From the NCBI GenBank assembly GCA_963739695.1, contig CAVUBB010000005.1, forward strand, positions 4,342-68,341: a stretch of 64,000 bases of DNA, written 5' to 3'. Below the pieces are notes generated by a model. That model had not been told where the DNA came from. It worked only from the letters and a program-made list of their open reading frames with translations, and made no database searches. Both the position numbers and the translations under genes were made by a program. Of this stretch, positions 3,225 to 62,476 are shown piece after piece (position 1 is the first letter of the stretch; each line of letters starts with the position of its first letter). Source of the stretch: an uncultured Pseudomonadota bacterium. Its GTDB lineage: Bacteria; Pseudomonadota; Gammaproteobacteria; Natronospirales; CAVUBB01.

Positions 3225-5080
3225 CGAAGGCCTCTGCAATTTCCTGCATACGGTAGGTTTCGGCATAATATCCGTCGGCTGACATCAACTGATTATGCGT
3301 GCCGGATTCGACGACATGTCCGTTTTTCAGCGAAATGATCTGATCCGCAAACGTGAGTGCGCTGAGGCGATGAGACGCCATGATAACGGTTTTTTCACTG
3401 GACCTTGATCGAATAGCCTGGACAATCGCCTCCCCGGTCTGTGTGTCCACCTGGCTGATGGGGTCGTCGAGAATCAAAAGGGGGGCGTCTTTCATAAACG
3501 CTCGGGCCAGCGCAACCCGCTGCTTCTGGCCGCCGGAGAGAATGATTCCTTTTTCACCGACCACAGTATCGTATCCTTTGGGGAACGCAGTGACAGTATC
3601 ATGCAGACACGCCTCCCGGGCCGCCGGGATAAGCTCGGATACGTCACTTTCCGGACTGTTGAGAAGAATGTTGTCGCGGATGGTTCCGGCAAACAGAAAC
3701 GGCTCCTGGGGAATAAAGGCGATGTTGGCCCTCAGGTCCCGAAGTTTTAATGTCCTGATATCGTTTCCGTCCAGAAAGATGCCGCCCTCGGTGACGTCAT
3801 AGAGCCGGGGGATCAAACCCAGAAGCGCCGATTTCCCGCTGCCGGGAGGCCCGACTATGCCAAGGATGCCTCCTGGTTTCACATGGAAGTCGATTTCGGA
3901 CAGAACCGGGGCGCTTTGACCGGAGGTGATTCCATAGGCGAAGGAGACATGGCGAAACTCGATGCCTCCCCCGGCACGTCCTACCGGTCGGGCATCGGCA
4001 GTATCCGTGATGCGGGGGCAGGTATCAAAAATTTTCTGTAACCTGTCGAGGGAGGCTTTCCCGCGCTGGATCAGGTTGGAAACCCAGCCCATTGCCATCA
4101 TGGGCCAGGTAAGCAGGCCCAGGTAGCTGATAAAAGCAACGAAATCGCCCGGCGTGATGTCGACGGTGATGGTCTGTTTCCCCCCGAGGTACAGCACCAC
4201 GGCGTTGCTCAGGTTTGTAAAAAAAACCATCATGGGGAAAAAGGCACCGAGAATTTTCGCAAGCGCCAGATTGCTCGTAATATATCGCCTTGAAACTTCA
4301 GCCACCTTTTCGGCTTCAAGCGCTTCCCGGCGATGGGCCTTGATCAGACGTATACCGGCAAATCGCTCCCGAACCGATTCGGTCAGTTCCGAAAAGTCGC
4401 CCTGGACCCTTCCGTAGAGCCGATGCATCCGTTTGCTGAAATATCGTGCGCCGAAAACAATAAAAGGAGCCGGAATCATGGCGAAAAGTGTCAGACGGAC
4501 ATTGATATAGGCCATGAAGCCCACCGTCGCACTTCCCAGAACAATGGCATCCGTGAGGGCCACCAGCCCCATCCCGATGGCCATTCTAATATTCATCAGG
4601 TCATTTGTGGCGTGTGCCATAAGATCCCCGGTAGTGACAGTGTCAAAATAACCGGGGGAAAGAGTCTGCAGATGTTTAAAAAGCCGGTTGCGAAGCCCTT
4701 CTTCCACCCGCCGGGATGTACCGATGAGGCAGCGTCGCCATCCGAACCGGAAGCATCCGATCAAAATACCGACCAGAAGAATTTCAACCCCGTATACGAG
4801 CAGCGTCCGCCAGTCTACTTTTAAGACGGTAAGGTCATCCACGGCCTGCTTGATGATCCTGGGGAATCATCAGTTGCATAAAGTCCACCAAGATCAGGCA
4901 AAGCAAACCGATGGCAATGAACAGCCTGAGTTCAACAAGGTATGGTTTGATAAGATGAAGTGCTTTCAAGGGAATATATTCAGTATCTGTAGCTCCGTTG
5001 CCGGAGGACAGTTCGCGTTTCAGGTTTAAACCGCCAGGCCCGATTTTTTTCACTATGTCGGATGTGGAAAGAACCGTCAA
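3217..5080 (-). pseudogene. ABC exporter, fused permease/ATPase (MdlA-like), one frameshift near 4840-4860
   Basis: ORF 3217..4842 has Walker A GPPGSGKS, LSGGQKQRVALARAF and Walker B LLILDDP. The missing N-terminal TM1 (LKALHLIKPYLVELRLFIAIGLLCLILVDFMQLMIP) lies in ORF 4835..5080 in another frame. Confidence 0.75.
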
Positions 5081-5287
5081 TAGACAATTGCCTGACCAAA
5101 GGGGAACCGCATTTGGATTTGGTGGTTTGCGTTAAAAAATGCCATGTGCGAATGCGTTTGTCACGGCATGCCCCGTCAAGCCGAACGGCGATGCTGTTGA
5201 AAAACGTTTGATTTGGCATGGAAATAATATATGGTTCAGGCTGATTTTGAATAACCAGCTCTAATCATAATCAAACAAAGGGGTATC

Positions 5288-51098: not shown

Positions 51099-52490
51099 AT
51101 GAAACAGACAATCGAGTTCAACCGGGAGCTGGTCAAGCGCTACGACGTTCAGGGGCCTCGTTATACGTCGTATCCCACTGCCGTGCAGTTCACCGAAGAT
51201 TTCGGGCTCAAGGACTACCGCCATCACGCGCATGTCAGCAACGAGGTGCCCATACCCGACCCGCTGTCGGTGTATATCCATATCCCGTTCTGCCGCAGCC
51301 CGTGCTTCTACTGCGCCTGCACCAAGATCATCACCCGCGATTCGGCCAAGGCCGAAGCCTACCTGCAGGGGCTGTACCGCGAGATCGCCATGCAGGCGGC
51401 GCTGTTCGACCCCGACCGCAGCGTGGATCAGCTCCATCTCGGCGGCGGCACCCCCACCTTCCTGGGGCTGCGCCAGTTGAGCGAGCTCATGTCCACCCTG
51501 GACAAGCACTTCAACCTGCGCGAAGACGAAGGCCGCGAGTTCTCCATCGAGATCGACCCGCGCACCGTCTCCGAAGAGACCATCGCGCTGCTCGCCGGGC
51601 TCGGTTTCAACCGCATGAGCGTGGGCGTGCAGGATTTCGCGCCCGAAGTGCAGCAGGCCGTGAACCGCGTGCAGCCGGAAGACGACACCGTGGCGGTCAT
51701 GGAGCAGGCGCGCCATTACGGCTTCGAATCGGTCAGCGTAGACCTTATCTATGGCCTGCCGTTCCAGACCGAGACCGGCTTCGACAACACCATCGGCTCG
51801 GTTATCCAGGCCAAGCCCGATCGCATCGCGGTCTACAGCTACGCGCACCTGCCGCAGCTCTTTAAGCCGCAGCGCCAGATCAAGGCCGAAGACCTGCCCA
51901 CCCCGGAGGTCAAGCTGGAACTGCTGCGCCTGACCATCGAGAAGCTCACCGCGGCGGGCTACGTCTATATCGGCATGGATCACTTCGCCCTGCCCGATGA
52001 CGAACTCGTGATCGCCCAGCGAAAGGGCACCCTGCAGCGCAACTTCCAGGGCTATTCCACCCACGCCCAGACCGACCTCATCGGCCTGGGAGTGAGCGCC
52101 ATCGGCAAGATCGGCGATTCCTACAGCCAGAACCTCAAATCTCTGCCGGACTACTATTCGGCCCTCGATGCCGGCCAACTGCCCATCTGGCGCGGGCTCG
52201 AACTCAACGCCGACGATATCCTCCGCCGCGAGGTCATCCAGCAGATCATGTGCCAGGGCGAGCTGGACTACAGCAAGGTTGGCAGCCGCTTCCAGATCCA
52301 GTTCAAGGACTACTTCGCCGACGAGCTCACCCGGCTCGAACCGCTGCGCGAAGACGGGCTGGTCAAGCTCGAGCCCGGCCGGCTCGAAGTAACCCCCGCC
52401 GGGCGCTTGCTGCTCCGGGCCGTGGCCATGGTCTTCGACGCCTATCTCAATAAGAACGGGAACGTCGAACGATTCTCGAAGGTGATCTGA
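51099..52490 (+). CDS. hemN: oxygen-independent coproporphyrinogen III oxidase (radical SAM)
   Basis: MKQTIEFNRELVKRYDVQGPRYTSYPTA...YIHIPFCRSPCFYCAC...HLGGGTPTFL. Confidence 0.9.
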   Translation: MKQTIEFNRELVKRYDVQGPRYTSYPTAVQFTEDFGLKDYRHHAHVSNEVPIPDPLSVYIHIPFCRSPCFYCACTKIITRDSAKAEAYLQGLYREIAMQAALFDPDRSVDQLHLGGGTPTFLGLRQLSELMSTLDKHFNLREDEGREFSIEIDPRTVSEETIALLAGLGFNRMSVGVQDFAPEVQQAVNRVQPEDDTVAVMEQARHYGFESVSVDLIYGLPFQTETGFDNTIGSVIQAKPDRIAVYSYAHLPQLFKPQRQIKAEDLPTPEVKLELLRLTIEKLTAAGYVYIGMDHFALPDDELVIAQRKGTLQRNFQGYSTHAQTDLIGLGVSAIGKIGDSYSQNLKSLPDYYSALDAGQLPIWRGLELNADDILRREVIQQIMCQGELDYSKVGSRFQIQFKDYFADELTRLEPLREDGLVKLEPGRLEVTPAGRLLLRAVAMVFDAYLNKNGNVERFSKVI

Positions 52491-52677
52491 GGCAGCACCG
52501 TCCGAGAGGTCGTGCCGGCGATATTGCGATGCGCGGCACGCCGAGGGTAGCGCTACGAGAGGCCGAAGAGGGCCCCCGCTCCAGTGGGAATCTGACCCAT
52601 CGGTGTAGCGCAGGCCTTCTTTCTCTCAAATAGTGCAACGAGAGCCGTATCCGTTTCCAGAATGGTGATTTCCTCAA

Positions 52678-52709
52678 GCCCGTCGGCTCATGCCGGCGGG
52701 CGTTTTCTT
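52678..52709 (+). terminator. candidate Rho-independent terminator about 190 nt after hemN
   Basis: GCCCGTCGGC-tcat-GCCGGCGGGC (10-bp stem with one G-U) followed by GTTTTCTT. Confidence 0.5.
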
Positions 52710-52949
52710 GTGGGCCTTCACCTCCATTCGGGGAGGGGGGCTGACCTTTACCAATCCGTGTCGCAAAATGCCCGCGGCGCATGGGCGGGGAGGCTCCGTC
52801 AAGCACCCCAGGGGGCCTTGGAAAGGGTCTAAGTACTTGATTGGGTTAGGTACGTAGTCCACTACGTATAAGTACGTATATTGGTCTAAGTATCCCTTGG
52901 GTAAGGTGTGCCCACGGTCCATTGGGGGGCCAATCAGCGGAGAGTACCG

Positions 52950-53693
52950 ATGATGCAGCAGCAGACCTCTAAAGTCGTGGATTTTGGCGCGCTGCGCCAT
53001 GCCTGCAGCACCTGCTCGCTAAGCGAGCTGTGTGTCGCCATGGGCCTGGACAAGGCGGGCATGGAACAGCTCGACTCCGTCGTCGAGCAATCGGGCCCCC
53101 TCCACGCCGAGGAGCACCTGTTCCGCGTGGGCGACCGCTTCCGTGCGGTCTATGCGGTGCGCTCCGGCTGCCTCAAGACCTACACCGTCGACAGCCTGGG
53201 CCGCGAGCAGGTCCTGGGCTTTCACCTCCCGGGCGAGCTGGTGGGGCTGGATGCGATCTACCCCAATCGCCACCGCTGCAACGGGGTTTCCCTCGATACC
53301 TCCTCGGTCTGCGTCCTGCCCTATGCGGAGCTGAACCGCCTGGCGCATGAGATTCCGAGCCTGCAGCAGCAGATCTTCAGGCTCATGAGCAAGGATATCG
53401 CCAATTCCTCCATGCTCTCGGGCGATTACACCGCCGAAGAGCGCCTGGCCAGCTTCCTGCTGGGCATGTCGCAGCGCCTGCGCCGCCGCGGCTATTCGGA
53501 AACTGATTTCAACCTGGCCATGTCGCGCCGCGATATCGCCAATTACCTGCGTCTCGCCACGGAGACGGTGAGCCGGGTGTTCAAGCGCTTCCAGCTCGAC
53601 GGCCTGATCAAGGTCGAGCGCCGGGCTATCCAGATATTGGATATGGAGCGGTTGAAGGAGATGGCGAGTTGTATTGGGGCGTTTGATGCCTGA
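52950..53693 (+). CDS. fnr: FNR/Anr-type oxygen-sensing Crp-family regulator
   Basis: N-terminal Cys cluster CSTCSLSELC (C-x2-C-x5-C) plus central NRHRCNG Cys. cNMP-like fold. C-terminal HTH RRDIANYLRLATETVSRVFKRF (E--SR recognition helix). GGAGAG SD 6 nt before ATGATG. Confidence 0.9.
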   Translation: MMQQQTSKVVDFGALRHACSTCSLSELCVAMGLDKAGMEQLDSVVEQSGPLHAEEHLFRVGDRFRAVYAVRSGCLKTYTVDSLGREQVLGFHLPGELVGLDAIYPNRHRCNGVSLDTSSVCVLPYAELNRLAHEIPSLQQQIFRLMSKDIANSSMLSGDYTAEERLASFLLGMSQRLRRRGYSETDFNLAMSRRDIANYLRLATETVSRVFKRFQLDGLIKVERRAIQILDMERLKEMASCIGAFDA

Positions 53694-53764
53694 TTGGGGC
53701 GAGACTGCGTCTCGCGCTCGCTAGAAGGTTTGGCGCTTGCCGCGCCAGGGCTGATTTAGGAAAA

Positions 53765-53793
53765 AGCCTCCGCTGGAAAGCGGGGGCTTTTTT
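53765..53793 (+). terminator. Rho-independent terminator after fnr
   Basis: AGCCTCCGC-tggaaa-GCGGGGGCT stem (one G-U) followed by T6 and preceded by A5. Confidence 0.7.
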
Positions 53794-53832
53794 GTTTGGA
53801 GGTTTCGCTCGCCCCTTCGGGGCTTTCAGCGA

Positions 53833-53866
53833 CCTACTTTCCTTTGCGCCGCCAAAGGAAAGTAGG
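53833..53866. repeat. perfect 14-bp-stem hairpin in a GC-rich ORF-poor stretch
   Basis: CCTACTTTCCTTTG-cgccgc-CAAAGGAAAGTAGG. Confidence 0.5.
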
Positions 53867-54299
53867 CAAAGGAAAGGCGGCCCCGGAGGCGGCGCGCTTG
53901 CTTCCGGCTTCGCCTCCAGCGCGTTCCCGGCCGTGCTCGCGTCCTCGCGGCCGCCCATACAGGCCATCCCTGGCCTGGATGGGCGGGCTTCGGCATCCCT
54001 GCCTCGCCCGCACCTGCGGTGCGGCTATTCGCTCCGGGCGCTGCGCTGTCCGGCGCCGTCTACGGGCGGGGGGGCAGTGCCCGACGCTCGGTTCTCTTAG
54101 TTCTCTTAGCGATGCCTACACCCAGGAACCCGGATTCCAGGCGATGTCGCAAAGTTCACTCCTCTCGAATGTGTCTGGGGTGGTCAACTGCTCCATTTCA
54201 ATGCAGGGGGAAAATTGATGACCGCGGGAGATCAAGCCTAGTATCAGTTTTCGCCCCTGGAAACCCGACTCCGCGTTAAGCGAAGGGTAGTCCAATACG

Positions 54300-54485
54300 G
54301 TGGGCGCAAGATAAAGGTGGCGGAAGGCCCCTCAACATCAGGTGTGTGAGCCAGTATGGACTGGCTCTCAACTAATCGGGAGTTCCGAACATAAGTTTAG
54401 GCGAATCCCGAATAGTGAGCGCGCTAGAGCAAGCCCGAGCGCAAGCGTAATCTTGGCGCCTTCCGCCAAAAGTAGTATTGCCGAA
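54300..54485 (-). ncRNA. candidate structured non-coding RNA immediately 3' of the second RT gene
   Basis: No credible ORF between 54110 and 54485. An 11-bp long-range pairing (54318-54328 TGGCGGAAGGC with 54458-54468 GCCTTCCGCCA) encloses nested hairpins: 54348-54367 GAGCCAGT-atgg-ACTGGCTC (perfect 8 bp) and 54376-54410 CGGGA...TCCCG. Strand is assumed from the RT operon. Confidence 0.4.
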
Positions 54486-56537
54486 CTAGTACACCGAACG
54501 CAATTCCTTTCTCTCAAGTAGCTTCCGCAAATTGAGTGCCTTCCATTTTACAAACCAATATGTCGACTCCAGTCGGGAAATGTCCGCAGTTATCTGCTCT
54601 GCGCTTACAGGATCGCTGCTCATTGGGAATGCCTTATAGAATGACTCGAGAAGCCGGCACCGGAGTGCCTCACTAAGGTACGGGCAGGTTATTGTATCTA
54701 GAAAAAGATGAGCCAGTTCCGAATCCGTCTCAAGGTCATGCATGTTTTTATCAGATAATCTTCTAGCAATGACCTTTTCTAGCGATTTCACCAATTCGCC
54801 ATAGTCCGACTTATCTTGAAAGTAATAAATAAACGCAACCAAGTGAAAATAGCTAAGCTGTTCTTCCTTAGAAAGCCAGTCACTAAACCAAGAACTTGGC
54901 ATTGCGTGAGAGGCGCCAAAATCGGCGGTAGCAATGATAATATTCAGTGTCTCCAAGGCGATATACTTATCATCGACCACCGGCGACTTATGGTGTTCGA
55001 TAAACTTCGCAACATTGCGTATGATTTCTGCCCGTATATAGGGCTGCGATGCGTTAAAACTGCGTCCAAAAAATTCGTCAACTATAAGTATAGTCTTTGA
55101 TATTTTCGTAGAGCTCTCTGGCCTTGGGCTAACGAAGTGCAAGAAAAACATTAGATCCAAGTAGACGCATATTACGTCCCTAACCGCATATTCTAGTGTG
55201 TCATCATCTATCCATTTAATTCTCTTCCTTGTTGATTCGATAAGCCGAATTATTCGGTGGCTAAAGGCTGCCTGGCAGAGATTGGCTATAGAAGAATATC
55301 CCTCACCGCTTTGGCTTGCGGCTATGCGAATCTGGTCAATGAGGTTCTTCGTAACGGCGGTGCGACGGCCCTTCAAGTGTTTGGGCTCAAGATTGGGTGC
55401 GCCACCGAATCCTTGGTCGCTATCAGACTCACGAAATAGCTTACCTTCAATGTCCTGAATAGCCTTTATTGCGAAGACTCGTGGTCGATTAATTAAGAAG
55501 GGCCGTTCAAATCTTCTGCTTTTCGTTTCGCCGATATGGAGATTGAAGTCGTTTAATTTGTTCTTTATTGCTTCAGTGACTTTCTTGGCCGTCGCATCAT
55601 CTTCGGCAAACAAGAAATAATCATCCATGAAACGTACAACAGAATATTGTTCTCCATGATTAAATCCGTGCTTTTCCAGGACAGCTGTTAGCACCTGTTT
55701 GTCTAGATGCTGGAATATCATCTCAGCGAAAATGCGGCTGACTTCGTTGCCAACTGGTATTCCATTTGTCTCTAGGTAGTTACTCCTTTGCATGAGCTGG
55801 TCTAGTTGGCTTCCGATTTGATTCTTGAACTGTTTATGAAATTTAGCAAATTTCTTCGTCTTGAGCGCCCAAGATATTGAATGGGAGTAGATGGTGTAAA
55901 AACAGCGCATTACATCCAACGTATAGAGCAAAGGATACTTCTTTTCTAGTTCGATAAACTGCTCACTGTCAAAGAATTTATGTAGCCGACTATATTTGTT
56001 GTAGGCGAAATAAGATGACGCATGACGCGACCAAATCTGCTCGTCAAGAGTATCTATGTCGATTTCTTTGTATTGACGCGTAGGGTCTCGTTCCTTCGCG
56101 AAGAAGGAACTGGACACAGATATCGGTGCCCGTATCGAGAATTCACTGTTGCTACACTGCCAAGTTATAGCGGAATAGAAATCTCTATAGAAAAGAGCCC
56201 AGCTTAATTGCGAGTGCGGGTGGAGCAGTGCTAACCGCCTAGTGTCGCCCGTTTTCTTCCATATTCTATAGTGGTGGGGGACTGTATAACGGACCTGCTT
56301 CCCGACGAGGCGTTGTCCTGCATTCGGTGGCTGAACGATTTTCCTGTAAATATGCTGAACGATCTTACTCAAGCGCGTGTCCGTTGGTGCTGGCGTGACT
56401 GATAGTGCCTCGACACGTTGGGCATTGAGGTAAAACCCATCATTCGAGAATATGATTGGAACATCGCCGGGAGCAGTATCGGTCAAGAGAGCGCGGAGGT
56501 AGTCTTTCTTGTCTAGCTGGATTCGGTGTTTGGTCAT
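54486..56537 (-). CDS. reverse transcriptase 2 (large, Abi/UG-type RT with ~330-aa C-terminal extension; UG8/Drt3b-like by architecture)
   Basis: RT blocks: IWKKTGDTRRLALLHPHSQL (fingers), LYTLDVMRCFYTIYSHSI (motif A), GIPVGNEVSRIFAEMIF (motif B), VVRFMDDYFLFAED (YxDD-type motif C), NLHIGETKS (motif D/E). Likely ATG at 56537 overlaps the RT1 stop as ATGA. AT-rich codon usage. Confidence 0.8.
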   Translation of the reverse strand: MTKHRIQLDKKDYLRALLTDTAPGDVPIIFSNDGFYLNAQRVEALSVTPAPTDTRLSKIVQHIYRKIVQPPNAGQRLVGKQVRYTVPHHYRIWKKTGDTRRLALLHPHSQLSWALFYRDFYSAITWQCSNSEFSIRAPISVSSSFFAKERDPTRQYKEIDIDTLDEQIWSRHASSYFAYNKYSRLHKFFDSEQFIELEKKYPLLYTLDVMRCFYTIYSHSISWALKTKKFAKFHKQFKNQIGSQLDQLMQRSNYLETNGIPVGNEVSRIFAEMIFQHLDKQVLTAVLEKHGFNHGEQYSVVRFMDDYFLFAEDDATAKKVTEAIKNKLNDFNLHIGETKSRRFERPFLINRPRVFAIKAIQDIEGKLFRESDSDQGFGGAPNLEPKHLKGRRTAVTKNLIDQIRIAASQSGEGYSSIANLCQAAFSHRIIRLIESTRKRIKWIDDDTLEYAVRDVICVYLDLMFFLHFVSPRPESSTKISKTILIVDEFFGRSFNASQPYIRAEIIRNVAKFIEHHKSPVVDDKYIALETLNIIIATADFGASHAMPSSWFSDWLSKEEQLSYFHLVAFIYYFQDKSDYGELVKSLEKVIARRLSDKNMHDLETDSELAHLFLDTITCPYLSEALRCRLLESFYKAFPMSSDPVSAEQITADISRLESTYWFVKWKALNLRKLLERKELRSVY

Positions 56538-57811
56538 CGCCAAATCCTCGCAATCTCGTGAAGCCGTGATGGACTGAATTTGCGGCGGATACGCATCTGA
56601 AACCCAGTCACGAACCGGAGGTTGGTTAGTGACTGGCGCTGTCCTGATGTGAGGGAACCTCTCAGAGCTTTGCCAAGACGGCCATGAAGGCCGAGGATGA
56701 AGCAGCGAGTGAATTTGTCTAGCTCCCGGAGAGCCTGCGACCTACTTCCTATTGCGGCGTAGTTATAGTAGATGCCCGCAGAAATAGGCCTACTATCTCT
56801 TTTAGATTTTACGTATCTATTACTAGTTAGAAAAGCCAACCTGTCAAACAACAGATCGTAGTCTCTATTCTTTAGGTAGGCAGAGAAAGACTGCGCAATT
56901 CTGGTTTTAATCTTACGAACTTTGTCGGGTGAAATATCTACATCGACGTAGCGGAATGATGCCAGCGATTGTTTTTTGGAGCTCGCGATATCGAATACAG
57001 TGTATTGGTAGCCAAGAAAACTTACTTGTAGTTTCCTGTCTCCTTCGGGATGGGTAAGAGTGACAGATTGATTGTCCGCTCTGGCTGTTAAGGTTTTCTC
57101 AGTATTAAAGTGCAGTCCAGTAGGTAAATTATCTTCCAGGTGCGTATGGAAATCTTGGTGTCTCTCATTCCCGGTTGTCATGATGAAAATATCGTCAACG
57201 AAGCGCGTGTAGTAAAGCACCCCTTGCTGTCGCACAGCCGCCCGGTCAAATTTAGAGAGTAGTAGATCAGCTAGCATGGGGCTTGTTTCGACGCCTCGCG
57301 GTAGACCGGGTCCAAACAGGCTTTGAAACAGTGAGGTATGAGTAAGAAGTAGCCGCGCGGCATGAGAACCAATAGAACTATGCTGTTGGAGGAGGTGCCG
57401 CAAGCATGAGAGTTGAATAGATTCGAAGAAGTTGCGTATATCAAGACGGTATACGCGGTATTGCGTACCCTCTCGCAGGAAGGTCGATATCTCCCTCGCA
57501 ATATCATTTCGATGCTTATGTGGATGGCATATTGCGTAGCGGAGATGTTCGTTGCAGAGCCTTAGTACGAGTTTCTCAGATAAAGTCGTAACACGGTATG
57601 CAGCTTTTCCAGAGATTCTAGTCTGTTCCAAACTTATCCCAGAACCAAACAATGTTTCCGCCGTGTTGAGCGCCCTCTCGACAACCTGGCCGCGATAGGT
57701 GTCGTCACTGAGCCGTGAGTCGTGATAGAAATCGTCGTCTATGAAGCATCTAGCCAAATTAGAGTAGCTGAAGGATTGGTTCTTCATGGCTATTGTGCAG
57801 GTCCCTTCCAT
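56534..57811 (-). CDS. reverse transcriptase 1 (compact RT; UG3/Drt3a-like by architecture)
   Basis: LSEKLVLRLCNEHL (motif 2), YRLDIRNFFESI (motif A), GLPRGVETSPMLADLLL (motif B), YTRFVDDIFIM (motif C), LHFNTEKT, SFLGYQY (motif 7). 425 aa. An alternative ATG is at 57787. Confidence 0.85.
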   Translation of the reverse strand: MEGTCTIAMKNQSFSYSNLARCFIDDDFYHDSRLSDDTYRGQVVERALNTAETLFGSGISLEQTRISGKAAYRVTTLSEKLVLRLCNEHLRYAICHPHKHRNDIAREISTFLREGTQYRVYRLDIRNFFESIQLSCLRHLLQQHSSIGSHAARLLLTHTSLFQSLFGPGLPRGVETSPMLADLLLSKFDRAAVRQQGVLYYTRFVDDIFIMTTGNERHQDFHTHLEDNLPTGLHFNTEKTLTARADNQSVTLTHPEGDRKLQVSFLGYQYTVFDIASSKKQSLASFRYVDVDISPDKVRKIKTRIAQSFSAYLKNRDYDLLFDRLAFLTSNRYVKSKRDSRPISAGIYYNYAAIGSRSQALRELDKFTRCFILGLHGRLGKALRGSLTSGQRQSLTNLRFVTGFQMRIRRKFSPSRLHEIARIWR

Positions 57812-57896
57812 GAGTAATTAGTTGGAGTAGAGTATAGTAAAAATATTGTGCTTCGGTGCGCATCGCGCCAGATTAAAGATCTTCCAGAGGATAGTG

Positions 57897-57937
57897 AGCG
57901 TAGGTTGGGCTGACAGAGGAAGTGCAACAACTGGCGC
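57897..57937 (+). repeat. 41-bp repeat family B, copy 1
   Basis: AGCGTAGGTTGGGCTGACAGAGGAAGTGCAACAACTGGCGC. About 35/41 identical to 58301..58341. Confidence 0.7.
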
Positions 57938-57960
57938 ATGATTAGATGCCAAATGAGGGT

Positions 57961-57987
57961 AGATCATGGACATCCATGATGTTCGCC
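57961..57987 (+). repeat. repeat family A core, copy 1 (variant with 1-nt insertion)
   Basis: AGATCATGGACATCCATGATGTTCGCC, 46 nt upstream of the ATG at 58007. Confidence 0.65.
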
Positions 57988-58006
57988 ATTAGGTAAGGAA
58001 GTCAGA

Positions 58007-58198
58007 ATGACAACGAAAAGGCGCATTCTCATCTTTTTGGCAACTCTTACATTCTTCGCTTTATCGATTCTGTTTGGTCTACACACCAAATATGGAGACC
58101 CATGGGGTACACCGGGGACGGATTGGGGGCGAGTGATCTTATCAGGGGTGTTCGGTTTAGCTGGGGTGGGGTCCTTCTTCCTGGCATTGGGCCGGTGA
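58007..58198 (+). CDS. small two-TM membrane protein (hypothetical)
   Basis: 63 aa: ILIFLATLTFFALSILFGL...VILSGVFGLAGVGSFFLAL. Good SD (AAGGAAG) 7 nt upstream. Confidence 0.5.
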   Translation: MTTKRRILIFLATLTFFALSILFGLHTKYGDPWGTPGTDWGRVILSGVFGLAGVGSFFLALGR

Positions 58199-58300
58199 CG
58201 AATGTAGCTCTCGACACCCACTATCTGCATTGCAGCGGGTCGGAAGCGGATATTTGGGGTCAGAGTAAAAACTCTAGGGTGCAGGAGATGCGCTGCTAGC

Positions 58301-58341
58301 AGCGTAGGTTGGGCTGACGGAGGAGGCCCAACAATTGGCGC
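58301..58341 (+). repeat. 41-bp repeat family B, copy 2
   Basis: AGCGTAGGTTGGGCTGACGGAGGAGGCCCAACAATTGGCGC. Contains the hairpin GGTTGGGC-N11-GCCCAACa. Confidence 0.7.
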
Positions 58342-58405
58342 TAGAATACAAGCCTTTCTAGCCACGTGCGCCGGCATGGGATTGGGGATGGATACATTAG
58401 ACAAT

Positions 58406-58462
58406 AGATCTGGACACCCATTACTCTCAAAGGCTCCGAAAGAGAGCTAAGTGACTGATTGG
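58406..58462 (+). repeat. repeat family A, long (57-bp) copy 2
   Basis: AGATCTGGACACCCATTACTCTCAAAGGCTCCGAAAGAGAGCTAAGTGACTGATTGG, identical to 58619..58675. Confidence 0.85.
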
Positions 58463-58586
58463 GGCATGATTTCAGTGGGGTGATGGCTGATCGGGGTCGG
58501 ATCAGCATAAGTAGCCACATCTGGGCTTCGCTCAATATCATTAAGGGTGCTGAGGTCCGGTCTCGCCAGAAGTCGAGGTACGAGAT

Positions 58587-58612
58587 AGATCTGGACACCC
58601 ATAATTCTCGAA
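58587..58612 (+). repeat. repeat family A core, copy 3
   Basis: AGATCTGGACACCCATAATTCTCGAA, directly abutting copy 4. Confidence 0.75.
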
Positions 58613-58618
58613 TGGGCT

Positions 58619-58675
58619 AGATCTGGACACCCATTACTCTCAAAGGCTCCGAAAGAGAGCTAAGTGACTGATTGG
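58619..58675 (+). repeat. repeat family A, long (57-bp) copy 4
   Basis: Identical 57-mer to 58406..58462. Confidence 0.85.
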
Positions 58676-58719
58676 CGGCATAATGAATAGGATTGGGGAA
58701 CAGGGTAGGGAGCCCCGGA

Positions 58720-59127
58720 GTGTATAGAGAATTTCTTCTCAGCGCGGTTGTATCGGCTGTCTACACCACTTTCTTGCTCACGCTGCTGGCCACGGCCGTC
58801 ATCTTGAGAGGAGCGTGTCTGTATACATTCTGGCTGCCTCGGGAGTTTCAGATGCTCAGCCCATTTTGGGTAACCGTTGTTGCAGCAATTAGCCTTTCGC
58901 TCTGGGCATTCGCTGGGCTGCGCCGGGCTATCCGACAGCGGCGGAAGGCGGCGTGGCCGGTGCTGTATCACATGTTCGCGGTTATATGCCTGGTATGGTG
59001 GCTGTATGATCTGCATGGGTTCTGGCGCGCCATGGAGTATGAGCGAGGCGTTATCCCGGCTGCGCAATATTTCACCAACGGCATTCCTGGAATCGGAACC
59101 AAGCCATATCTGTGCCATGGGTGGTAG
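58720..59127 (+). CDS. hypothetical four-TM membrane protein
   Basis: ORF 58693..59127 has four hydrophobic segments (LLSAVVSAVYTTFLLTLLATAVIL, WVTVVAAISLSLWAFAGL, VLYHMFAVICLVWWLY ...). Start is uncertain (GTG 58720 or TTG 58693). Confidence 0.45.
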   Translation: MYREFLLSAVVSAVYTTFLLTLLATAVILRGACLYTFWLPREFQMLSPFWVTVVAAISLSLWAFAGLRRAIRQRRKAAWPVLYHMFAVICLVWWLYDLHGFWRAMEYERGVIPAAQYFTNGIPGIGTKPYLCHGW

Positions 59128-59131
59128 AAGT

Positions 59132-59158
59132 AGATCTGGACATCCATGATTCTCACGA
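59132..59158 (+). repeat. repeat family A core, copy 5
   Basis: AGATCTGGACATCCATGATTCTCACGA, 47 nt upstream of the ATG at 59179. Confidence 0.75.
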
Positions 59159-59178
59159 CATCCAGGATTGGGGGCAAC

Positions 59179-59964
59179 ATGCGAAGACATTTTCTTCTTG
59201 TTCTGACGGCAGCCATGGTTGCCGGTTGTGCGCAGCAGGCTGTGCGGCCAGCGCAACAGAAAACAGCGCAACCACGGGCATTCATAGATCGGAGCGCAAT
59301 CTTCTATCCGAAATCCGGCGATAAGTTCGATCTGATTCGAGAATACACGTATGCCAACGTCGCCTCAGGCATTCAATTGACGTACGAGGCTGAAGATCTT
59401 CCTTCCGCAAAGATCGACATCTTCGTCTACCCGGTCGGCGATGTGCCCGAGGACAAGGCATTGGCTATCGATATGAAGGATGTCCAGACAGGTGTCGAAG
59501 GCATGGTAAGGCAGGGCAGGTACAGCGAAGTCCAGTATGGGGCATTGTCCGATTTCAATGTGCCGCTCGGCAAGGACAGCACTTTGTCCGGTAAGAGGCA
59601 GCTCCTCACGTTCGATCTGGATGGGACGCCCATGGTCTCGGCGGCCTATCTTGCGTACAAGCAGCTTTATCTTTTCGAGCTGCGGATAACTTCGGCAGCG
59701 GTTACCGAGCAGCAGCTGGCACCCGTCGGAGACCGGATTGCCACTGAAGCCTTTCGCAAGATTCACATCCTGAGTGAAGGAAAATGTGCATCTCCCACCG
59801 TGGAGGTCGGGAAAAACGCAGATCAGCTGAGGCAATCGCTCATGGCCGCGATGAAGCATGTCCTCGCAGTATCATGTACGACTGAGTTTCAACCAGGCGC
59901 GCTCAAGCCTGGCGACAATGAAGATGTGACGGTCCTCACGTTCCGGCCTCAGGACTGGAATTAG
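59179..59964 (+). CDS. hypothetical lipoprotein
   Basis: MRRHFLLVLTAAMVAGCAQQ (lipobox VAGC). 261 aa. No family recognised. Confidence 0.6.
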   Translation: MRRHFLLVLTAAMVAGCAQQAVRPAQQKTAQPRAFIDRSAIFYPKSGDKFDLIREYTYANVASGIQLTYEAEDLPSAKIDIFVYPVGDVPEDKALAIDMKDVQTGVEGMVRQGRYSEVQYGALSDFNVPLGKDSTLSGKRQLLTFDLDGTPMVSAAYLAYKQLYLFELRITSAAVTEQQLAPVGDRIATEAFRKIHILSEGKCASPTVEVGKNADQLRQSLMAAMKHVLAVSCTTEFQPGALKPGDNEDVTVLTFRPQDWN

Positions 59965-59975
59965 TCGGTTGGACA

Positions 59976-60004
59976 AGATCTGGACCCCATAATTCGCAAA
60001 GGCG
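59976..60004 (+). repeat. repeat family A core, copy 6 (variant with 1-nt deletion)
   Basis: AGATCTGGACCCCATAATTCGCAAAGGCG, 12 nt after the lipoprotein stop. Confidence 0.7.
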
Positions 60005-60159
60005 CCAGAAATGCGCCCATATGGGCAGGTCTTTGACTCATGATTGCTCAACCGTCAGCAGCGGTATCCGCAATCACGACCCAAAGACCTGTTTCCCCTT
60101 GTTTCCAGTAGCGCCGTGGCGGTGGTTTGTCGTCCTCAAACCATGGCAGGCGTTACTCG

Positions 60160-60904: not shown

Positions 60905-62476
60905 ATGCTCAGGCCAGTCACTCGCAGTCAGGCACGCCATCGGGTGTACCGGTTCGGCGACTTCCATCTCGATCTTGACCGGGAATCGCTGTCGCGCGGC
61001 GGTCAGGCATTGAAGCTTCGGCCGAAATCCTTCGCCGTACTCAGATACCTGGTTGAACACGCCGGCCGCCTGGTGAGCAAGGAAGAGCTGCTGGCGGAGA
61101 TCTGGGGCCACCTTCACGTCTCGGAAGGCTCGCTCACCCAGTGTCTTATCGATATCCGCCGGGTGCTGGCCGATGCGGATCATCAGATGGTACGGACGGT
61201 GCCCCGGCGCGGCTACATCTTCGAGCTGAAAGTCAGCGCGTCTGGATCCGCCCCTGCCAAATCCAATGCTTCACGGCGGCTCTTGCCACTCCGATTTTCC
61301 CTATCGGCCTTGGCCGTTCTGGTGCTGCTTGTCGTCGGCGGTGTGTGGGGCGTGCGCTACGTTGTCCGTTCCGCGATCGGGCCGATGGCTGTGGCGCATC
61401 ATGCGGCGCCGAACGCGATTGCGACACAGCCCACTCAAACTCTGAATCCGGTACCGGCCAGGCCGGACGATGCGGGGTCGGCAAAGGTGAAATATTCACC
61501 CGCCTACAATCACTACCAGCGTGGCGAGTTCTTCTGGCATCGGCGTGCCGCCGGCGACATGGCGCTCGCGGAACGAGAGTTTCGCCAGGCGACACAGGCA
61601 GACCCTGGATATGCTCCCGCATGGACGGGGCTGGCCGGCGCGTTGTGGGGGCGTATCCTCAATGCCGGCAAAGCGCCGGCGCCGGGTGAACTCGAAGCCT
61701 ACCGCGACGCCCTGGAACATGCGGTGGCAGCCGATCCAAACCTGGCCGAAGCACACATGCGGCTCGCCAACTACTATCTGGTGGTCGAGAACTATCCGGA
61801 GTTTCATGCGCATTGGGAGAAGGCCCGTGCGCTTGCGCCGGATGACCTCCTCGTGCTCGGCTGGGGTGCAGCCTTTGCCGCCTGGCACGGGCATTATCAG
61901 CAGGCGATCAGCTTGCAGCGTCGCGCGGCCGAGGTGGCCCCTCTTTCTGCCGTAGTGCATGCGAATCTCGCAGGATTTCTGATGGCCGGTGGGCGTTTCA
62001 AGGAAGCGGAGTCGGAGTTTCGCCAGGTGCTGGAGCTCAGCCCGCGAATGAACAGCGCCGACCCGAACTTTCTCTCGCCCGCCAGTGGTCTGGCGTTGGC
62101 CATGATCCTCCAGAAACGTTATGCACAAGCACTTGCAGTCATCGACAAACAGCCCTCTGATGCTCCCGGCAACAAGCAGGTAGAGGCGCTAGCCTACTGG
62201 GGCATGGGCCGCAGAGCTGAGTACACCAAGGCAGTCGCGCAGCTGGAGCGTGAAGGTGGTCCCAGTACACAGTTGCGTCTGGCTGAGCTGGACGCGTTCC
62301 GGGGCCATCGGGAGGACGCCTTCAGCCATCTGCGGGCAGCCGTGGATGGCGTGAATGACATGAATGGGCCTACCGCAAAGTGGGACCTGCTGCAGGAATT
62401 GCGCTTGTCGCCATTCCTTATCCCGTTGCGCGACGATCCGCTTTGGGCGCAACTGACGAGATTACCGGATGCCTGA
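60905..62476 (+). CDS. membrane-anchored winged-helix (OmpR/CadC-type) transcriptional regulator with C-terminal TPR domain
   Basis: YRFGDFHLDLDRESLSRGGQALKLRPKSFAVLRYLVEHAGRLVSKEELLAEIW...VRTVPRRGYIFE (Trans_reg_C). One TM (LSALAVLVLLVVGGVWGV). TPR-like repeats after it. Confidence 0.8.
   Translation: MLRPVTRSQARHRVYRFGDFHLDLDRESLSRGGQALKLRPKSFAVLRYLVEHAGRLVSKEELLAEIWGHLHVSEGSLTQCLIDIRRVLADADHQMVRTVPRRGYIFELKVSASGSAPAKSNASRRLLPLRFSLSALAVLVLLVVGGVWGVRYVVRSAIGPMAVAHHAAPNAIATQPTQTLNPVPARPDDAGSAKVKYSPAYNHYQRGEFFWHRRAAGDMALAEREFRQATQADPGYAPAWTGLAGALWGRILNAGKAPAPGELEAYRDALEHAVAADPNLAEAHMRLANYYLVVENYPEFHAHWEKARALAPDDLLVLGWGAAFAAWHGHYQQAISLQRRAAEVAPLSAVVHANLAGFLMAGGRFKEAESEFRQVLELSPRMNSADPNFLSPASGLALAMILQKRYAQALAVIDKQPSDAPGNKQVEALAYWGMGRRAEYTKAVAQLEREGGPSTQLRLAELDAFRGHREDAFSHLRAAVDGVNDMNGPTAKWDLLQELRLSPFLIPLRDDPLWAQLTRLPDA

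What the first reader, a model, noticed from the sequence alone, without database searches (positions are those of the whole stretch)
54300..54485. Nested-stem RNA-like element directly after the RT2 stop codon
An 11-bp perfect long-range pairing (54318-54328 with 54458-54468) closes a domain of about 130 nt. That domain contains a perfect 8-bp hairpin (54348-54367) and a further stem (54376-54410). It also has a local direct repeat GAGCGC...GAGCGC (about 54417-54442). It starts 18 nt after the RT2 stop, on the same transcript if the operon reads through. Several defence RTs (DRT2, DRT9, retrons and, as I recall, DRT3) depend on a cis-encoded ncRNA as template or scaffold. This is the obvious candidate. 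The 150-nt leader upstream of RT1 (57812-57960) is a weaker alternative.
Basis: partly seen in the sequence, partly recalled or inferred. Interest (0 to 1): 0.7.

Follow-up and report, generated by a model that had tools for sequence, protein, structure and literature searches.

The report
DRT3 defence system's template RNA
The folded RNA-like element just after the second reverse transcriptase gene is this locus's copy of the known non-coding RNA of the DRT3 anti-phage system, including the conserved ACACAC stretch that one of the two enzymes copies into repetitive DNA, so it is real but not a new kind of thing.

Summary
All stems described are in the sequence, and the 157-nt core (54315-54471, minus strand) folds far better than shuffles (z = -5.7).

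The two upstream genes are Drt3a and Drt3b, so this is a DRT3 (UG3+UG8) defence operon. The element is its cis-encoded ncRNA. A long closing helix P1 encloses three hairpins (P2, P3, P4).

- A covariance model built from eight homologous loci, without the window, hits the 64-kb window once, exactly here (E = 3e-11).
- P1 and P4 show strong compensatory covariation across about 20 loci, and P3 moderate covariation.

Published work shows that the DRT3 ncRNA lies downstream of Drt3b. It also shows that ACACAC templates poly(dT-dG) synthesis by Drt3a, while Drt3b makes poly(dC-dA) without a nucleic-acid template.

This copy belongs to a deep-branching lineage: its proteins are at most 40% identical to any relative found. 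It has no detectable sequence similarity to the E. coli ECOR12 ncRNA used in experiments. Expression and function here are inferred, not shown.

Verdict: new member of a known kind, low interest.

The parts
56534..57811 (-). Drt3a (UG3, Class 2 RT), 425 aa. By homology this is the RNA-templated enzyme that copies the ncRNA template. Its catalytic motif reads FVDD.
   Evidence: PADLOC Drt3a E = 4.8e-123 and Pfam RVT_1. PDB 9z6y chain A 'Drt3a reverse transcriptase protein' E = 1.7e-52. Motif at residues 204-207.
54486..56543 (-). Drt3b (UG8, Class 1 RT with an alpha-repeat C-terminal domain), 685 codons from TTG; the database entry has 683 aa from ATG. By homology it is the protein-primed, protein-templated poly(dC-dA) polymerase. 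Its start overlaps the end of Drt3a.
   Evidence: PADLOC Drt3b E = 6.3e-183. PDB 9z6y chain H 'Drt3b' E = 1.1e-97. The functional residues of EcoDRT3b map to D27, R102, D210, F215, R270 and F305-M306-D307-D308. The C-terminal Y685 is invariant in the alignment.
54315..54471 (-). DRT3 ncRNA core, 157 nt. It is a four-way junction: P1 encloses P2, P3 and P4, and the template lies in the strand that joins P4 to the 3' arm of P1.
   Evidence: Covariance model R1, built without the window, hits only here: 56 bits, E = 3e-11. Fold z = -5.69. The same three-hairpin architecture appears in 17 of 22 homologues.
54455..54468 (-). P1 5' arm. UGGCGGAAGGC (54468-54458) pairs with 54328-54318. After a 1-nt bulge, CC (54456-54455) pairs with GG (54331-54330).
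   Evidence: On a structure-blind MAFFT alignment, 12 of 13 pairs have compensatory changes. 80% of cells are paired against 39-48% when the partner is slid, and 0 of 500 shuffles reach the observed value.
54318..54331 (-). P1 3' arm: GG.GCCUUCCGCCA.
54419..54446 (-). P2 hairpin domain. Its core is GCGCU.GGG-CUUG-CUC.AGCGC.
   Evidence: MFE and centroid fold. Homologues have a hairpin of unrelated sequence at the same position. No column-wise covariation test was possible because the alignment is poor here.
54368..54418 (-). P3 hairpin domain, 51 nt.
   Evidence: The matching domain is 50-54 nt in most homologues. The distal P3 helix of homologues covaries: 9 of 9 pairs have compensatory changes and 74% of cells are paired. 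The model did not align the window's own distal P3.
54348..54367 (-). P4, a perfect 8-bp hairpin (GAGCCAGU-CCAU-ACUGGCUC) that abuts the template. It is the likely template-boundary element.
   Evidence: In the model-fitted alignment P4 is 92% paired, and 6 of 7 pairs have compensatory changes. The template starts 0 nt after this hairpin in 18 of 22 homologues. Wang et al. describe read-through into the stem-loop next to the template as ending repeat synthesis (PMC13174585).
54342..54347 (-). 5'-ACACAC-3' template, unpaired. By homology Drt3a copies it repeatedly into poly(dT-dG).
   Evidence: It is invariant in all 18 aligned homologues. ACACAC lies within 400 nt (29-234 nt) downstream of Drt3b in 56 of the 61 loci that have downstream sequence. 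The template role was shown by mutation and biochemistry for EcoDRT3 (PMC13174585).
54329..54341 (-). Conserved joining strand CUGAUGUUGAGGG, between the template and the 3' arm of P1.
   Evidence: The consensus CCTGATGYTGAGG is nearly invariant across the subgroup.
54445..54454 (-). Conserved joining strand AAGAUUACGC (family consensus AAUAUURCU), after the 5' arm of P1. A54448 and C54447 are candidate partners of U54335 and G54336.
   Evidence: Conservation. The R-Y pair counts are AU 9, GC 8, GU 1, and all 18 sequences are paired at both positions. At least three separate switches appear on a rough Drt3b tree.

Best explanation

**Transcription (inferred).** It is probably transcribed as the 3' end of the drt3a-drt3b operon. 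No promoter-like site lies between the Drt3b stop and the element.

**Structure (shown by fold and covariation).**
- It folds into a four-way junction.
- A long helix, P1, closes three hairpins: P2, P3 and P4.
- The six-nucleotide 5'-ACACAC-3' is left single-stranded, directly 3' of the GC-rich hairpin P4.

**Mechanism (inferred from experiments on E. coli DRT3 and on a second, structurally solved system).**
1. Drt3a binds the RNA and copies ACACAC repeatedly into poly(dT-dG).
2. P4 limits how far the enzyme can read, so the product can slip back and re-align on the dinucleotide repeat.
3. [quoted passage not shown] It is primed from its C-terminal tyrosine (Y685 here) and gated by D27 and R270.
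4. The two strands anneal into poly(GT/AC) duplex DNA.
5. This duplex accumulates when phage proteins block RecBCD, and the infected cell aborts.

The RNA probably also acts as a scaffold of the Drt3a-Drt3b complex.
For: **Identity of the system.**
- The upstream genes are Drt3a and Drt3b.
- They match the PDB chains named Drt3a and Drt3b in 9z6y/9z6z.

**Position and motif.**
- The element starts 18 nt after the Drt3b stop.
- ACACAC lies 138 nt after the stop. In the closest group of homologous loci it lies 131-163 nt after.
- Of the 61 fetched Drt3b loci that have downstream sequence, 56 carry ACACAC within 400 nt of the stop.

**Homology.**
- Model R1 was built from eight other loci.
- It gives a single hit in 128 kb of searched strand: 54315-54471, 56 bits, E = 3e-11.
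- It also finds the equivalent position in 21 other loci.

**Structure.**
- Fold z = -5.69.
- P1 covaries on a structure-blind alignment: covariation score 0.70 against 0.23 or less when the partner is slid, and 0 of 500 shuffles reach it.
- In the model-fitted alignment, 29 of 31 pairs have compensatory changes and 86% of cells are paired, against 38-49% when slid.
- 17 of 22 homologues fold into P1 enclosing three hairpins. The template abuts the last hairpin in 18 of 22.

**Mechanism, from the literature.**
- The ncRNA downstream of DRT3b is essential, and ACACAC mutations abolish poly(dT-dG) synthesis and defence (PMC13174585).
- A CACACA-like exposed motif is shared by UG8 downstream ncRNA groups 1-17 (PMC9226505).
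- A 6:6:6 complex with the ncRNA as scaffold is described in reviews of Deng et al. 2026 (PMC13213688, PMC13314766).

**Enzyme competence.** The catalytic, gating and priming residues of EcoDRT3b are conserved or conservatively replaced in the window's Drt3b.
Against: - There is no expression, end-mapping or binding data for this organism.
- No promoter-like site lies directly upstream of the element. No intrinsic terminator lies directly after it; the nearest terminator-like site on this strand is at 53783-53766. The RNA's ends are therefore unknown.
- Primary-sequence similarity to the EcoDRT3 (ECOR12) ncRNA used in experiments is undetectable. Only the position, the topology and the motif are shared.
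- The covariance model did not align the window's distal P3. P2 could not be tested column by column.
- Both RTs read FxDD instead of YxDD, and Drt3b has Asp where EcoDRT3b has Glu22. The E22D mutant kept only partial activity (PMC13174585). Activity and product could therefore differ quantitatively.
- The model-fitted alignment leans towards the modelled structure. Eight of its 22 rows are the sequences the model was built from.
Confidence: 0.9

Rival explanations
1. The element is a structured 3' UTR that stabilises or terminates the drt3a-drt3b mRNA. On this view it has no template or scaffold role.
For: It lies directly after the stop codon with no promoter of its own. In many homologues the 3' arm of P1 is followed by a U-rich stretch (CCUUUAUCUU here).
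Against: A 130-nt 'loop' is not the geometry of an intrinsic terminator, and the terminator scan reports nothing here. A stabilising stem would not need an invariant unpaired ACACAC, nor the conserved joining strands seen across Gamma- and Alphaproteobacteria and Planctomycetota. In E. coli the corresponding RNA is bound in the RT complex and serves as the template (PMC13174585).
Confidence: 0.04
2. The functional ncRNA of this locus is instead the 150-nt leader upstream of Drt3a (57812-57963).
For: It is a sizeable non-coding stretch on the operon strand. Some DRT systems (DRT2, DRT9) place their ncRNA upstream of the RT (PMC9226505).
Against: Its fold is barely better than shuffles: z = -1.84, with 6 of 200 shuffles as good. 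The model gives no hit there. ACACAC is not reported in it: the motif search found three copies per 64 kb on one strand and seven on the other, and the operon-proximal one is at 54347. 54 nt of the leader (57897-57950) are an 81% copy of 58301-58354, which points to local repeated DNA. For proteobacterial UG3+UG8 systems the ncRNA lies downstream of UG8 (PMC9226505).
Confidence: 0.02
3. The stems are a chance inverted repeat plus local GC-rich palindromes, with no function.
For: Perfect 11-bp inverted repeats within 150 nt occur 8 times in the window and about 2.5 times in shuffles.
Against: Fold z = -5.7. A single model hit at E = 3e-11 from a model that did not include this sequence. Compensatory changes across about 20 loci.
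Confidence: 0.01
4. It is a true DRT3 ncRNA, but in this deep-branching lineage it directs a different product or a different reset register. Possible causes are the extended conserved 3' strand CUGAUGYUGAGG, or the FMDD and Asp27 changes in Drt3b.
For: The proteins are at most 40% identical to any relative found. The subgroup has strongly conserved joining strands that are absent from the ECOR12 ncRNA. A covarying R-Y pair lies 6-7 nt 3' of the template.
Against: The template hexamer is identical to the experimentally defined one. The gating Arg and the priming Tyr are conserved. Asp at the Glu22 position is common among homologues, and the E22D mutant still makes poly(dC-dA) (PMC13174585).
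Confidence: 0.03

Closest known systems
DRT3 (UG3+UG8) ncRNA of E. coli ECOR12 (EcoDRT3), 161 nt (Wang, Yoneyama et al. 2026, bioRxiv, PMC13174585)
   Same: - It is encoded on the operon strand directly downstream of Drt3b.
- A closing helix (GUUAAAGGG/CCUUUUAGC there) encloses several hairpins.
- An unpaired 5'-ACACAC-3' lies in the 3' joining strand, right after the last hairpin and a few nucleotides before the 3' arm of the closing helix.
- The partner proteins are Drt3a and Drt3b, with the same gating and priming positions.
   Different: - No primary-sequence similarity is detectable outside the motif (blastn).
- The ECOR12 RNA ends in a canonical terminator hairpin; the window's does not.
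- The window's joining strands AAGAUUAC and CUGAUGUUGAGG have no counterpart in ECOR12.
- The Drt3b proteins are about 34% identical over the part compared.
- Glu22 is Asp here, and YVDD is FMDD.
DRT3 complex solved by cryo-EM, PDB 9z6y/9z6z (Deng et al. 2026, known here only through reviews PMC13213688 and PMC13314766)
   Same: - Drt3a of 426 aa and Drt3b of 650 aa are the best PDB matches of the window's proteins (E = 1.7e-52 and 1.1e-97).
- In that system the ncRNA serves as ACACAC template and as central scaffold.
- L018 is the fetched locus whose Drt3b is closest to 9z6y (55% identity). Its downstream RNA has related joining strands (CAAUAUGC ... ACACAC UAAGGGAUGAGG) and is weakly hit by the same model (E = 0.51).
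   Different: - Drt3b is about 40% identical.
- Glu26 there is Asp27 here; Arg253 there corresponds to Arg270 here.
- I could not read the RNA chain of the PDB entry, so no direct comparison of the RNA structures was made.
UG8-downstream ncRNA groups 1-17 with the exposed 'CACACA'-like motif (Mestre et al. 2022, NAR, PMC9226505)
   Same: They show group-specific structures downstream of UG8, a globally conserved CACACA-like exposed motif, a variable distance from the RT stop, and little sequence similarity between groups. The fetched loci show the same pattern.
   Different: That paper read the motif as a possible recognition or attachment site. I could not determine which of its 20 groups, if any, contains the window's subgroup.
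DRT10 (UG17) and DRT9 (UG28) ncRNAs, and telomerase RNA
   Same: A short template held in a structured RNA is copied repeatedly into tandem-repeat or homopolymer DNA. A helix 5' of the template limits reading (PMC12632851 and PMC13174585 draw this analogy).
   Different: They use different RT families, different templates and different products. DRT9 and DRT10 use one RT, and their synthesis is protein-primed. No priming residue was found for DRT3a (PMC13174585).

Membership tests
DRT3 (UG3+UG8) ncRNA | Encoded in cis, on the same strand, immediately downstream of Drt3b in a drt3a-drt3b operon | tested here: met
   Drt3a is at 56534-57811 and Drt3b at 54486-56543, both on the minus strand. The element starts 18 nt after the Drt3b stop.
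DRT3 (UG3+UG8) ncRNA | Conserved 5'-ACACAC-3' (CACACA-like) motif, exposed and unpaired in the predicted structure | tested here: met
   ACACAC is at 54347-54342 and is unpaired in both the MFE and the centroid fold. It is invariant in the 18-sequence alignment.
DRT3 (UG3+UG8) ncRNA | Stem-loop directly adjacent to the template on its 5' side | tested here: met
   The perfect 8-bp P4 ends at 54348 and the template starts at 54347. The gap is 0 nt in 18 of 22 homologues. P4 covaries.
DRT3 (UG3+UG8) ncRNA | Secondary structure conserved with covariation among related loci | tested here: met
   P1 on a structure-blind alignment: 12 of 13 pairs compensatory, 0 of 500 shuffles. P1, P3 and P4 on the model-fitted alignment: 29 of 31 pairs compensatory. 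R-scape was not available.
DRT3 (UG3+UG8) ncRNA | Detectable homology to ncRNAs of other DRT3 loci | tested here: met
   The model built from 8 loci without the window gives a single window hit at 54315-54471, 56 bits, E = 3e-11.
DRT3 (UG3+UG8) ncRNA | Sequence similarity to the experimentally characterised EcoDRT3 (ECOR12) ncRNA, or a match to the published covariance model | tested here: not met
   blastn of the 161-nt ECOR12 ncRNA finds nothing in the window. The published model was not available, and by its authors' account it covers only 32-41 close relatives of EcoDRT3 (PMC13174585). Lack of similarity between groups is the known pattern for this RNA (PMC9226505), so this does not exclude membership of the class.
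DRT3 (UG3+UG8) ncRNA | The RNA is expressed, associates with the RT complex, and templates poly(dT-dG) | not testable with these tools
   This needs RNA-seq or RIP-seq, cDNA sequencing, or biochemistry with this locus.
DRT3 (UG3+UG8) ncRNA | Curated RNA family match (Rfam) | tested here: inconclusive
   No Rfam 15 family matches 54300-54485 even at E up to 1. That result cannot distinguish a poor match from the absence of a DRT3 ncRNA family in Rfam, and I did not check which applies.
DRT3 defence system (proteins) | Paired Class 2 UG3 RT and Class 1 UG8 RT with catalytic aspartates, a C-terminal priming Tyr, and Glu/Asp and Arg gating residues in Drt3b | tested here: met
   PADLOC Drt3a and Drt3b. 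FVDD in Drt3a and FMDD in Drt3b. E22 maps to D27, R71 to R102 and R241 to R270. Y685 is invariant. The Y-to-F change in the YxDD motif is a deviation of unknown effect.
Retron msr/msd ncRNA | Retron-type RT with an adjacent msr-msd bounded by a1/a2 inverted repeats and a branching G | tested here: not met
   The RTs score as Drt3a and Drt3b. Retron RT models score far lower: RT_Ec107-like E = 4e-13 against 5e-123 for Drt3a. No Rfam retron family was hit.

The most novel reading that the evidence does not exclude
**The reading.** The window's ncRNA and its roughly 20 relatives may form a structurally distinct DRT3 ncRNA class. The relatives come from Gamma- and Alphaproteobacteria, a Planctomycetota MAG and an E. 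coli P2-like prophage.

**Features of the class.**
- It is a four-way junction.
- It has near-invariant joining strands AAUAUURC and CUGAUGYUGAGG.
- A covarying two-base-pair clamp lies 6-7 nt 3' of the template (A54448-U54335 and C54447-G54336 in the window).

**What would be new.** The clamp, rather than only the 5' hairpin, might set where Drt3a starts and re-aligns on the template. In this deep-branching FMDD/Asp27 lineage, that could change product length or register compared with EcoDRT3.
Probability: 0.12. Interest if true: 0.35.

Novelty: new member of a known kind. Interest (0 to 1): 0.2.

Why it matters
The result assigns a function to an otherwise unannotated 157-nt stretch and completes the annotation of a three-part DRT3 defence system. 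The system sits in a low-GC island of a roughly 62% GC chromosome.

This copy comes from a lineage whose proteins are at most 40% identical to any other found in a 5.8-billion-protein collection. It is therefore a useful outgroup for asking which RNA features are truly required:
- the ACACAC template;
- the abutting hairpin P4;
- the closing helix P1;
- the two conserved joining strands.

It does not open a new question. The RNA, its motif and its mechanism have been published.

Tried and rejected
- **Rfam.** The scan of 52000-60000 at E up to 1 gave no hit on the element. It gave only weak, sub-threshold hits further downstream.
- **MAFFT alignment of 18 downstream regions.** It recovered only P1 under RNAalifold, because the hairpin domains vary too much in length and sequence. 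A smaller 8-sequence alignment was needed to recover P3 and P4. P2 could never be aligned column by column, so its support is only per-sequence folding.
- **blastn of the published ECOR12 ncRNA** against the window and all fetched loci. It found no meaningful similarity.
- **Promoter and terminator scan of 53600-58500.** Nothing flanks the element, and the counts are no higher than in shuffles. The RNA ends could not be predicted.
- **The Drt3a leader as the alternative ncRNA.** Rejected.
- **Naming the organism.** The cluster look-up of the Drt3b protein returned no name. The only other copy found is a 4.3-kb Logan contig with identical downstream sequence. No close relative was available for fine-scale covariation.
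- **An extended helix between AAUAUUA and UGAUGUU.** The register does not explain the observed R/Y covariation. Only the 2-bp register R-Y plus C-G is supported.
- **The 11-bp inverted repeat as evidence on its own.** Rejected as being within chance expectation.
- **The primary Deng et al. paper.** It is not in the held library, so it is cited only through reviews.

Full report
**1. What is in the sequence**

On the minus strand, a 425-aa ORF (56534-57811) overlaps by a few codons a 685-codon ORF (54486-56543). PADLOC profiles identify them as Drt3a (E = 4.8e-123) and Drt3b (E = 6.3e-183). Pfam sees an RVT_1 domain in each. Their best PDB matches are the chains deposited as 'Drt3a reverse transcriptase protein' and 'Drt3b reverse transcriptase protein' in 9z6y/9z6z (E = 1.7e-52 and 1.1e-97). 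The locus is therefore a DRT3 (UG3+UG8) defence operon.

The finding lies directly after the Drt3b stop codon.
- the 11-bp perfect pairing 54318-54328 with 54458-54468;
- the 8-bp hairpin 54367-54348;
- the UCGGGA/UCCCGA stem inside 54411-54376;
- two copies of GAGCGC on the plus strand.

The GAGCGC copies are simply the arms of a hairpin built around the self-complementary GCGC.

**2. Is it more than chance?**

The 11-bp inverted repeat alone is not. The window has eight such repeats, and composition-matched shuffles average 2.5.

The fold as a whole is. The region 54300-54485 gives -73 kcal/mol, z = -4.85. The 157-nt core 54315-54471 gives -70.1 kcal/mol, z = -5.69, and none of 200 shuffles does as well.

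**3.

Directly 3' of the 8-bp hairpin lies 5'-ACACAC-3' (54347-54342), unpaired in both the MFE and the centroid structure.

I fetched 66 Drt3b loci from one-genome-per-species contigs. Of the 61 with downstream sequence, 56 have ACACAC within 400 nt (29-234 nt) downstream of the stop. In the closest group it sits at +131 to +163, against +138 in the window.

Around it, the window shares a conserved frame with loci L001-L017 and L019, less closely with L063, and with an E. coli locus in a P2-like prophage (L067):
- the P1 5' arm, followed by AAUAUURCU;
- GUUGAG, then a hairpin;
- ACACAC, then CUGAUGYUGAGG, then the P1 3' arm.

**4. Homology and covariation**

*P1 on a structure-blind alignment.* On a MAFFT alignment of 18 downstream regions, RNAalifold recovers the closing helix P1, and 12 of its 13 pairs have compensatory changes. 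80% of cells are paired, against 39-48% when the 3' partner is slid by 1-3 columns. The covariation score is 0.70 against 0.23 or less, and 0 of 500 shuffles reach it.

*Covariance model built without the window.* An alignment of eight homologues also gives a distal P3 helix and P4. The covariance model built from it finds exactly one match in both strands of the 64-kb window: 54315-54471, minus strand, 56 bits, E = 3e-11. It also finds the equivalent position in 21 other loci.

*Pair counts on the model-fitted alignment.*

| Helix | Cells paired |
|---|---|
| P1 | 89% |
| distal P3 | 74% |
| P4 | 92% |
| all 31 pairs | 86% (38-49% when slid) |

29 of the 31 pairs show compensatory changes. 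This alignment leans towards the model, and 8 of its 22 rows are the sequences the model was built from. The P1 result is therefore the cleaner test.

*Independent single-sequence folds.* With only the template forced unpaired, 17 of 22 sequences give P1 enclosing exactly three hairpin domains. The middle domain is 50-54 nt in most of them. The template begins 0 nt after the last hairpin in 18 of 22. The window fits this pattern: P2 is 28 nt, P3 is 51 nt, P4 is 20 nt and the gap is 0.

**5. What is known about this RNA**

- Mestre et al. 2022 (PMC9226505) reported that the ncRNA at the 3' end of UG3+UG8 systems is essential, citing Gao et al. 2020. They found that the sequences downstream of UG8 fall into about 20 groups with group-specific structures. 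Groups 1-17 share an exposed 'CACACA'-like motif at a variable distance from the RT.
- Wang, Yoneyama et al. 2026 (PMC13174585) showed several things for E. coli ECOR12 DRT3:
  - The ncRNA downstream of DRT3b co-purifies with the active RT complex.
  - DRT3a needs the ncRNA to make poly(dT-dG).
  - Mutating the ACACAC loop abolishes that product and abolishes defence.
  - DRT3b makes poly(dC-dA) without RNA. It is primed from Y666 and gated by E22 and R241.
  - The strands anneal into dsDNA. RecBCD keeps this dsDNA in check, and the phage protein Gam unleashes it.
  - Read-through into the stem-loop next to the template ends repeat synthesis.
- Reviews of Deng et al. 2026 describe a 6:6:6 Drt3a:Drt3b:ncRNA complex in which the RNA is both template and scaffold (PMC13213688, PMC13314766).

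**6. Mechanism proposed for the window**

Shown here: position, structure, motif and homology.

Inferred from the literature:
1. Drt3a binds the four-way-junction RNA and copies ACACAC iteratively into poly(dT-dG).
2. The GC-rich P4 acts as the 5' template boundary.
3. Drt3b supplies the complementary strand.

The window's Drt3b keeps the relevant residues:

| EcoDRT3b | Window Drt3b |
|---|---|
| E22 | D27 |
| R71 | R102 |
| D182 | D210 |
| F187 | F215 |
| R241 | R270 |
| YVDD | FMDD (both aspartates kept) |
| Y666 (priming) | Y685 (C-terminal, invariant in the alignment) |

Asp at the E22 position is common among homologues, and the E22D mutant retains partial activity (PMC13174585).

No promoter-like site lies between the Drt3b stop and the element, and no terminator follows it directly. 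I therefore infer co-transcription with the operon. The RNA ends are unknown.

**7. How it compares with the studied RNAs**

The published 161-nt ECOR12 ncRNA (Table S3 of PMC13174585) folds with the same topology. A closing helix encloses several hairpins, and ACACAC lies in the 3' joining strand just after the last hairpin. It has no detectable sequence similarity to the window's RNA, and it ends in a canonical terminator.

The Drt3b of the window is about 34% identical to ECOR12 Drt3b over the part compared. It is about 40% identical to the 9z6y Drt3b. The closest fetched relative of 9z6y (L018, 55%) has a downstream RNA with related joining strands and a weak model hit.

On a rough Drt3b tree the window branches deep, next to L018. 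In the 5.8-billion-protein collection, nothing other than the sequence itself exceeds 39% identity over the full length.

**8. Rivals**

- *A plain 3' UTR stabiliser or terminator.* This does not explain an invariant unpaired hexamer and the conserved joining strands.
- *The Drt3a leader.* It is weakly structured (z = -1.84), gets no model hit, and is partly a local repeat.
- *Chance.* Excluded by the conservation data.
- *A changed product in this lineage.* This cannot be excluded without experiments, but it is unlikely given the identical template.

**9. Verdict**

The element is a new, divergent member of a known kind, the DRT3 ncRNA. It would not surprise a specialist. Its value lies in annotation and in comparative analysis of which RNA features are universal.

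Noticed in passing
window 54447-54448 with 54335-54336 (minus strand); alignment A2 columns 45-46 with 249-250: A two-base-pair contact may link the strand after the P1 5' arm (AUU[A/G]C) to the strand 3' of the template (GAUG[U/C]UG). The R-Y position reads AU in 9 sequences, GC in 8 and GU in 1. All 18 sequences are paired at both positions. On a rough Drt3b tree the G-C state arises at least three times. It may clamp the template loop. No longer helix fits this register.
   Followed up: partly
window 57897-60009: The region upstream of Drt3a holds repeated modules. There is an exact 58-nt direct repeat (58405-58462 and 58618-58675). A 28-nt motif, ATAGATCTGGACACCCATTACTCTCAAA, occurs five times (58204, 58404, 58585, 58617, 59130). 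A 54-nt repeat links the Drt3a leader (57897-57950) to 58301-58354 at 81% identity. On the minus strand the motif reads ATGGGTGTCCAGATCTA. No convincing ORFs or Pfam hits were found in this region. The nature of the repeats is unknown; they could be repeated regulatory sites, a small mobile repeat or decayed gene starts.
   Followed up: partly
window about 54100-60000: The DRT3 operon and the repeat-rich region upstream of it form a low-GC island (42-54% GC) in a roughly 62% GC chromosome. On one side are cbb3 oxidase genes, hemN and an Fnr/Crp-type regulator (52908-53693, plus strand). On the other is an OmpR-type regulator with TPR repeats (60905-62476). This suggests horizontal acquisition. 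No flanking direct repeats that would mark integration were found.
   Followed up: partly
window 54486-56543 and 56534-57811 (proteins): Both RTs have Phe in place of the Tyr of the YxDD motif: FVDD in Drt3a and FMDD in Drt3b. Y and V are at least 90% conserved at these positions in the 15-sequence Drt3b alignment. Drt3b has Asp27 where the two studied systems have Glu (E22 and E26). Asp is invariant in the whole 15-sequence alignment of this clade.
   Followed up: partly
window 53758-54013 (minus strand): There are sub-threshold Rfam matches to Burkholderia sRNA ncS011 (53758-53983, 31 bits against a gathering score of 48, E = 5e-5, full model length) and to TwoAYGGAY RNA (53947-54013). They lie between the Fnr-type gene and the DRT3 ncRNA. 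The same stretch holds a perfect 14-bp palindrome (53833-53846 with 53853-53866) and a terminator-like site (53783-53766, minus strand). The ncS011 match may hint at a Burkholderiales-like host.
   Followed up: no
loci L038, L040-L043, L046, L049, L053, L059, L065; and L055-L058: In several other Drt3b lineages (Yersinia, Pluralibacter, Proteus, Chitinophagaceae, Glycomyces and others), ACACAC lies only 29-42 nt after the Drt3b stop. The 5' part of their ncRNA must therefore overlap the coding region, or the architecture differs. Four loci (Ideonella, Rubrivivax, Chthoniobacter and Alteromonas aestuariivivens) show no ACACAC within 400 nt, although for three of them my stop-codon call is uncertain.
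   Followed up: no
locus L067 (E. coli, GCA_022978735.1) 5033-5286: An E. coli DRT3 sits next to P2-type Psu and Ogr/Delta genes. It carries a larger version (about 250 nt) of the same ncRNA subtype: P1 is GUGGUCAGUUUC/GAAACUGACCAC, ACACAC lies 234 nt after the stop, and the same GUUGAG and CUGAUGUUGAG frame is present. This differs from the ECOR12 ncRNA used in the published experiments.
   Followed up: partly
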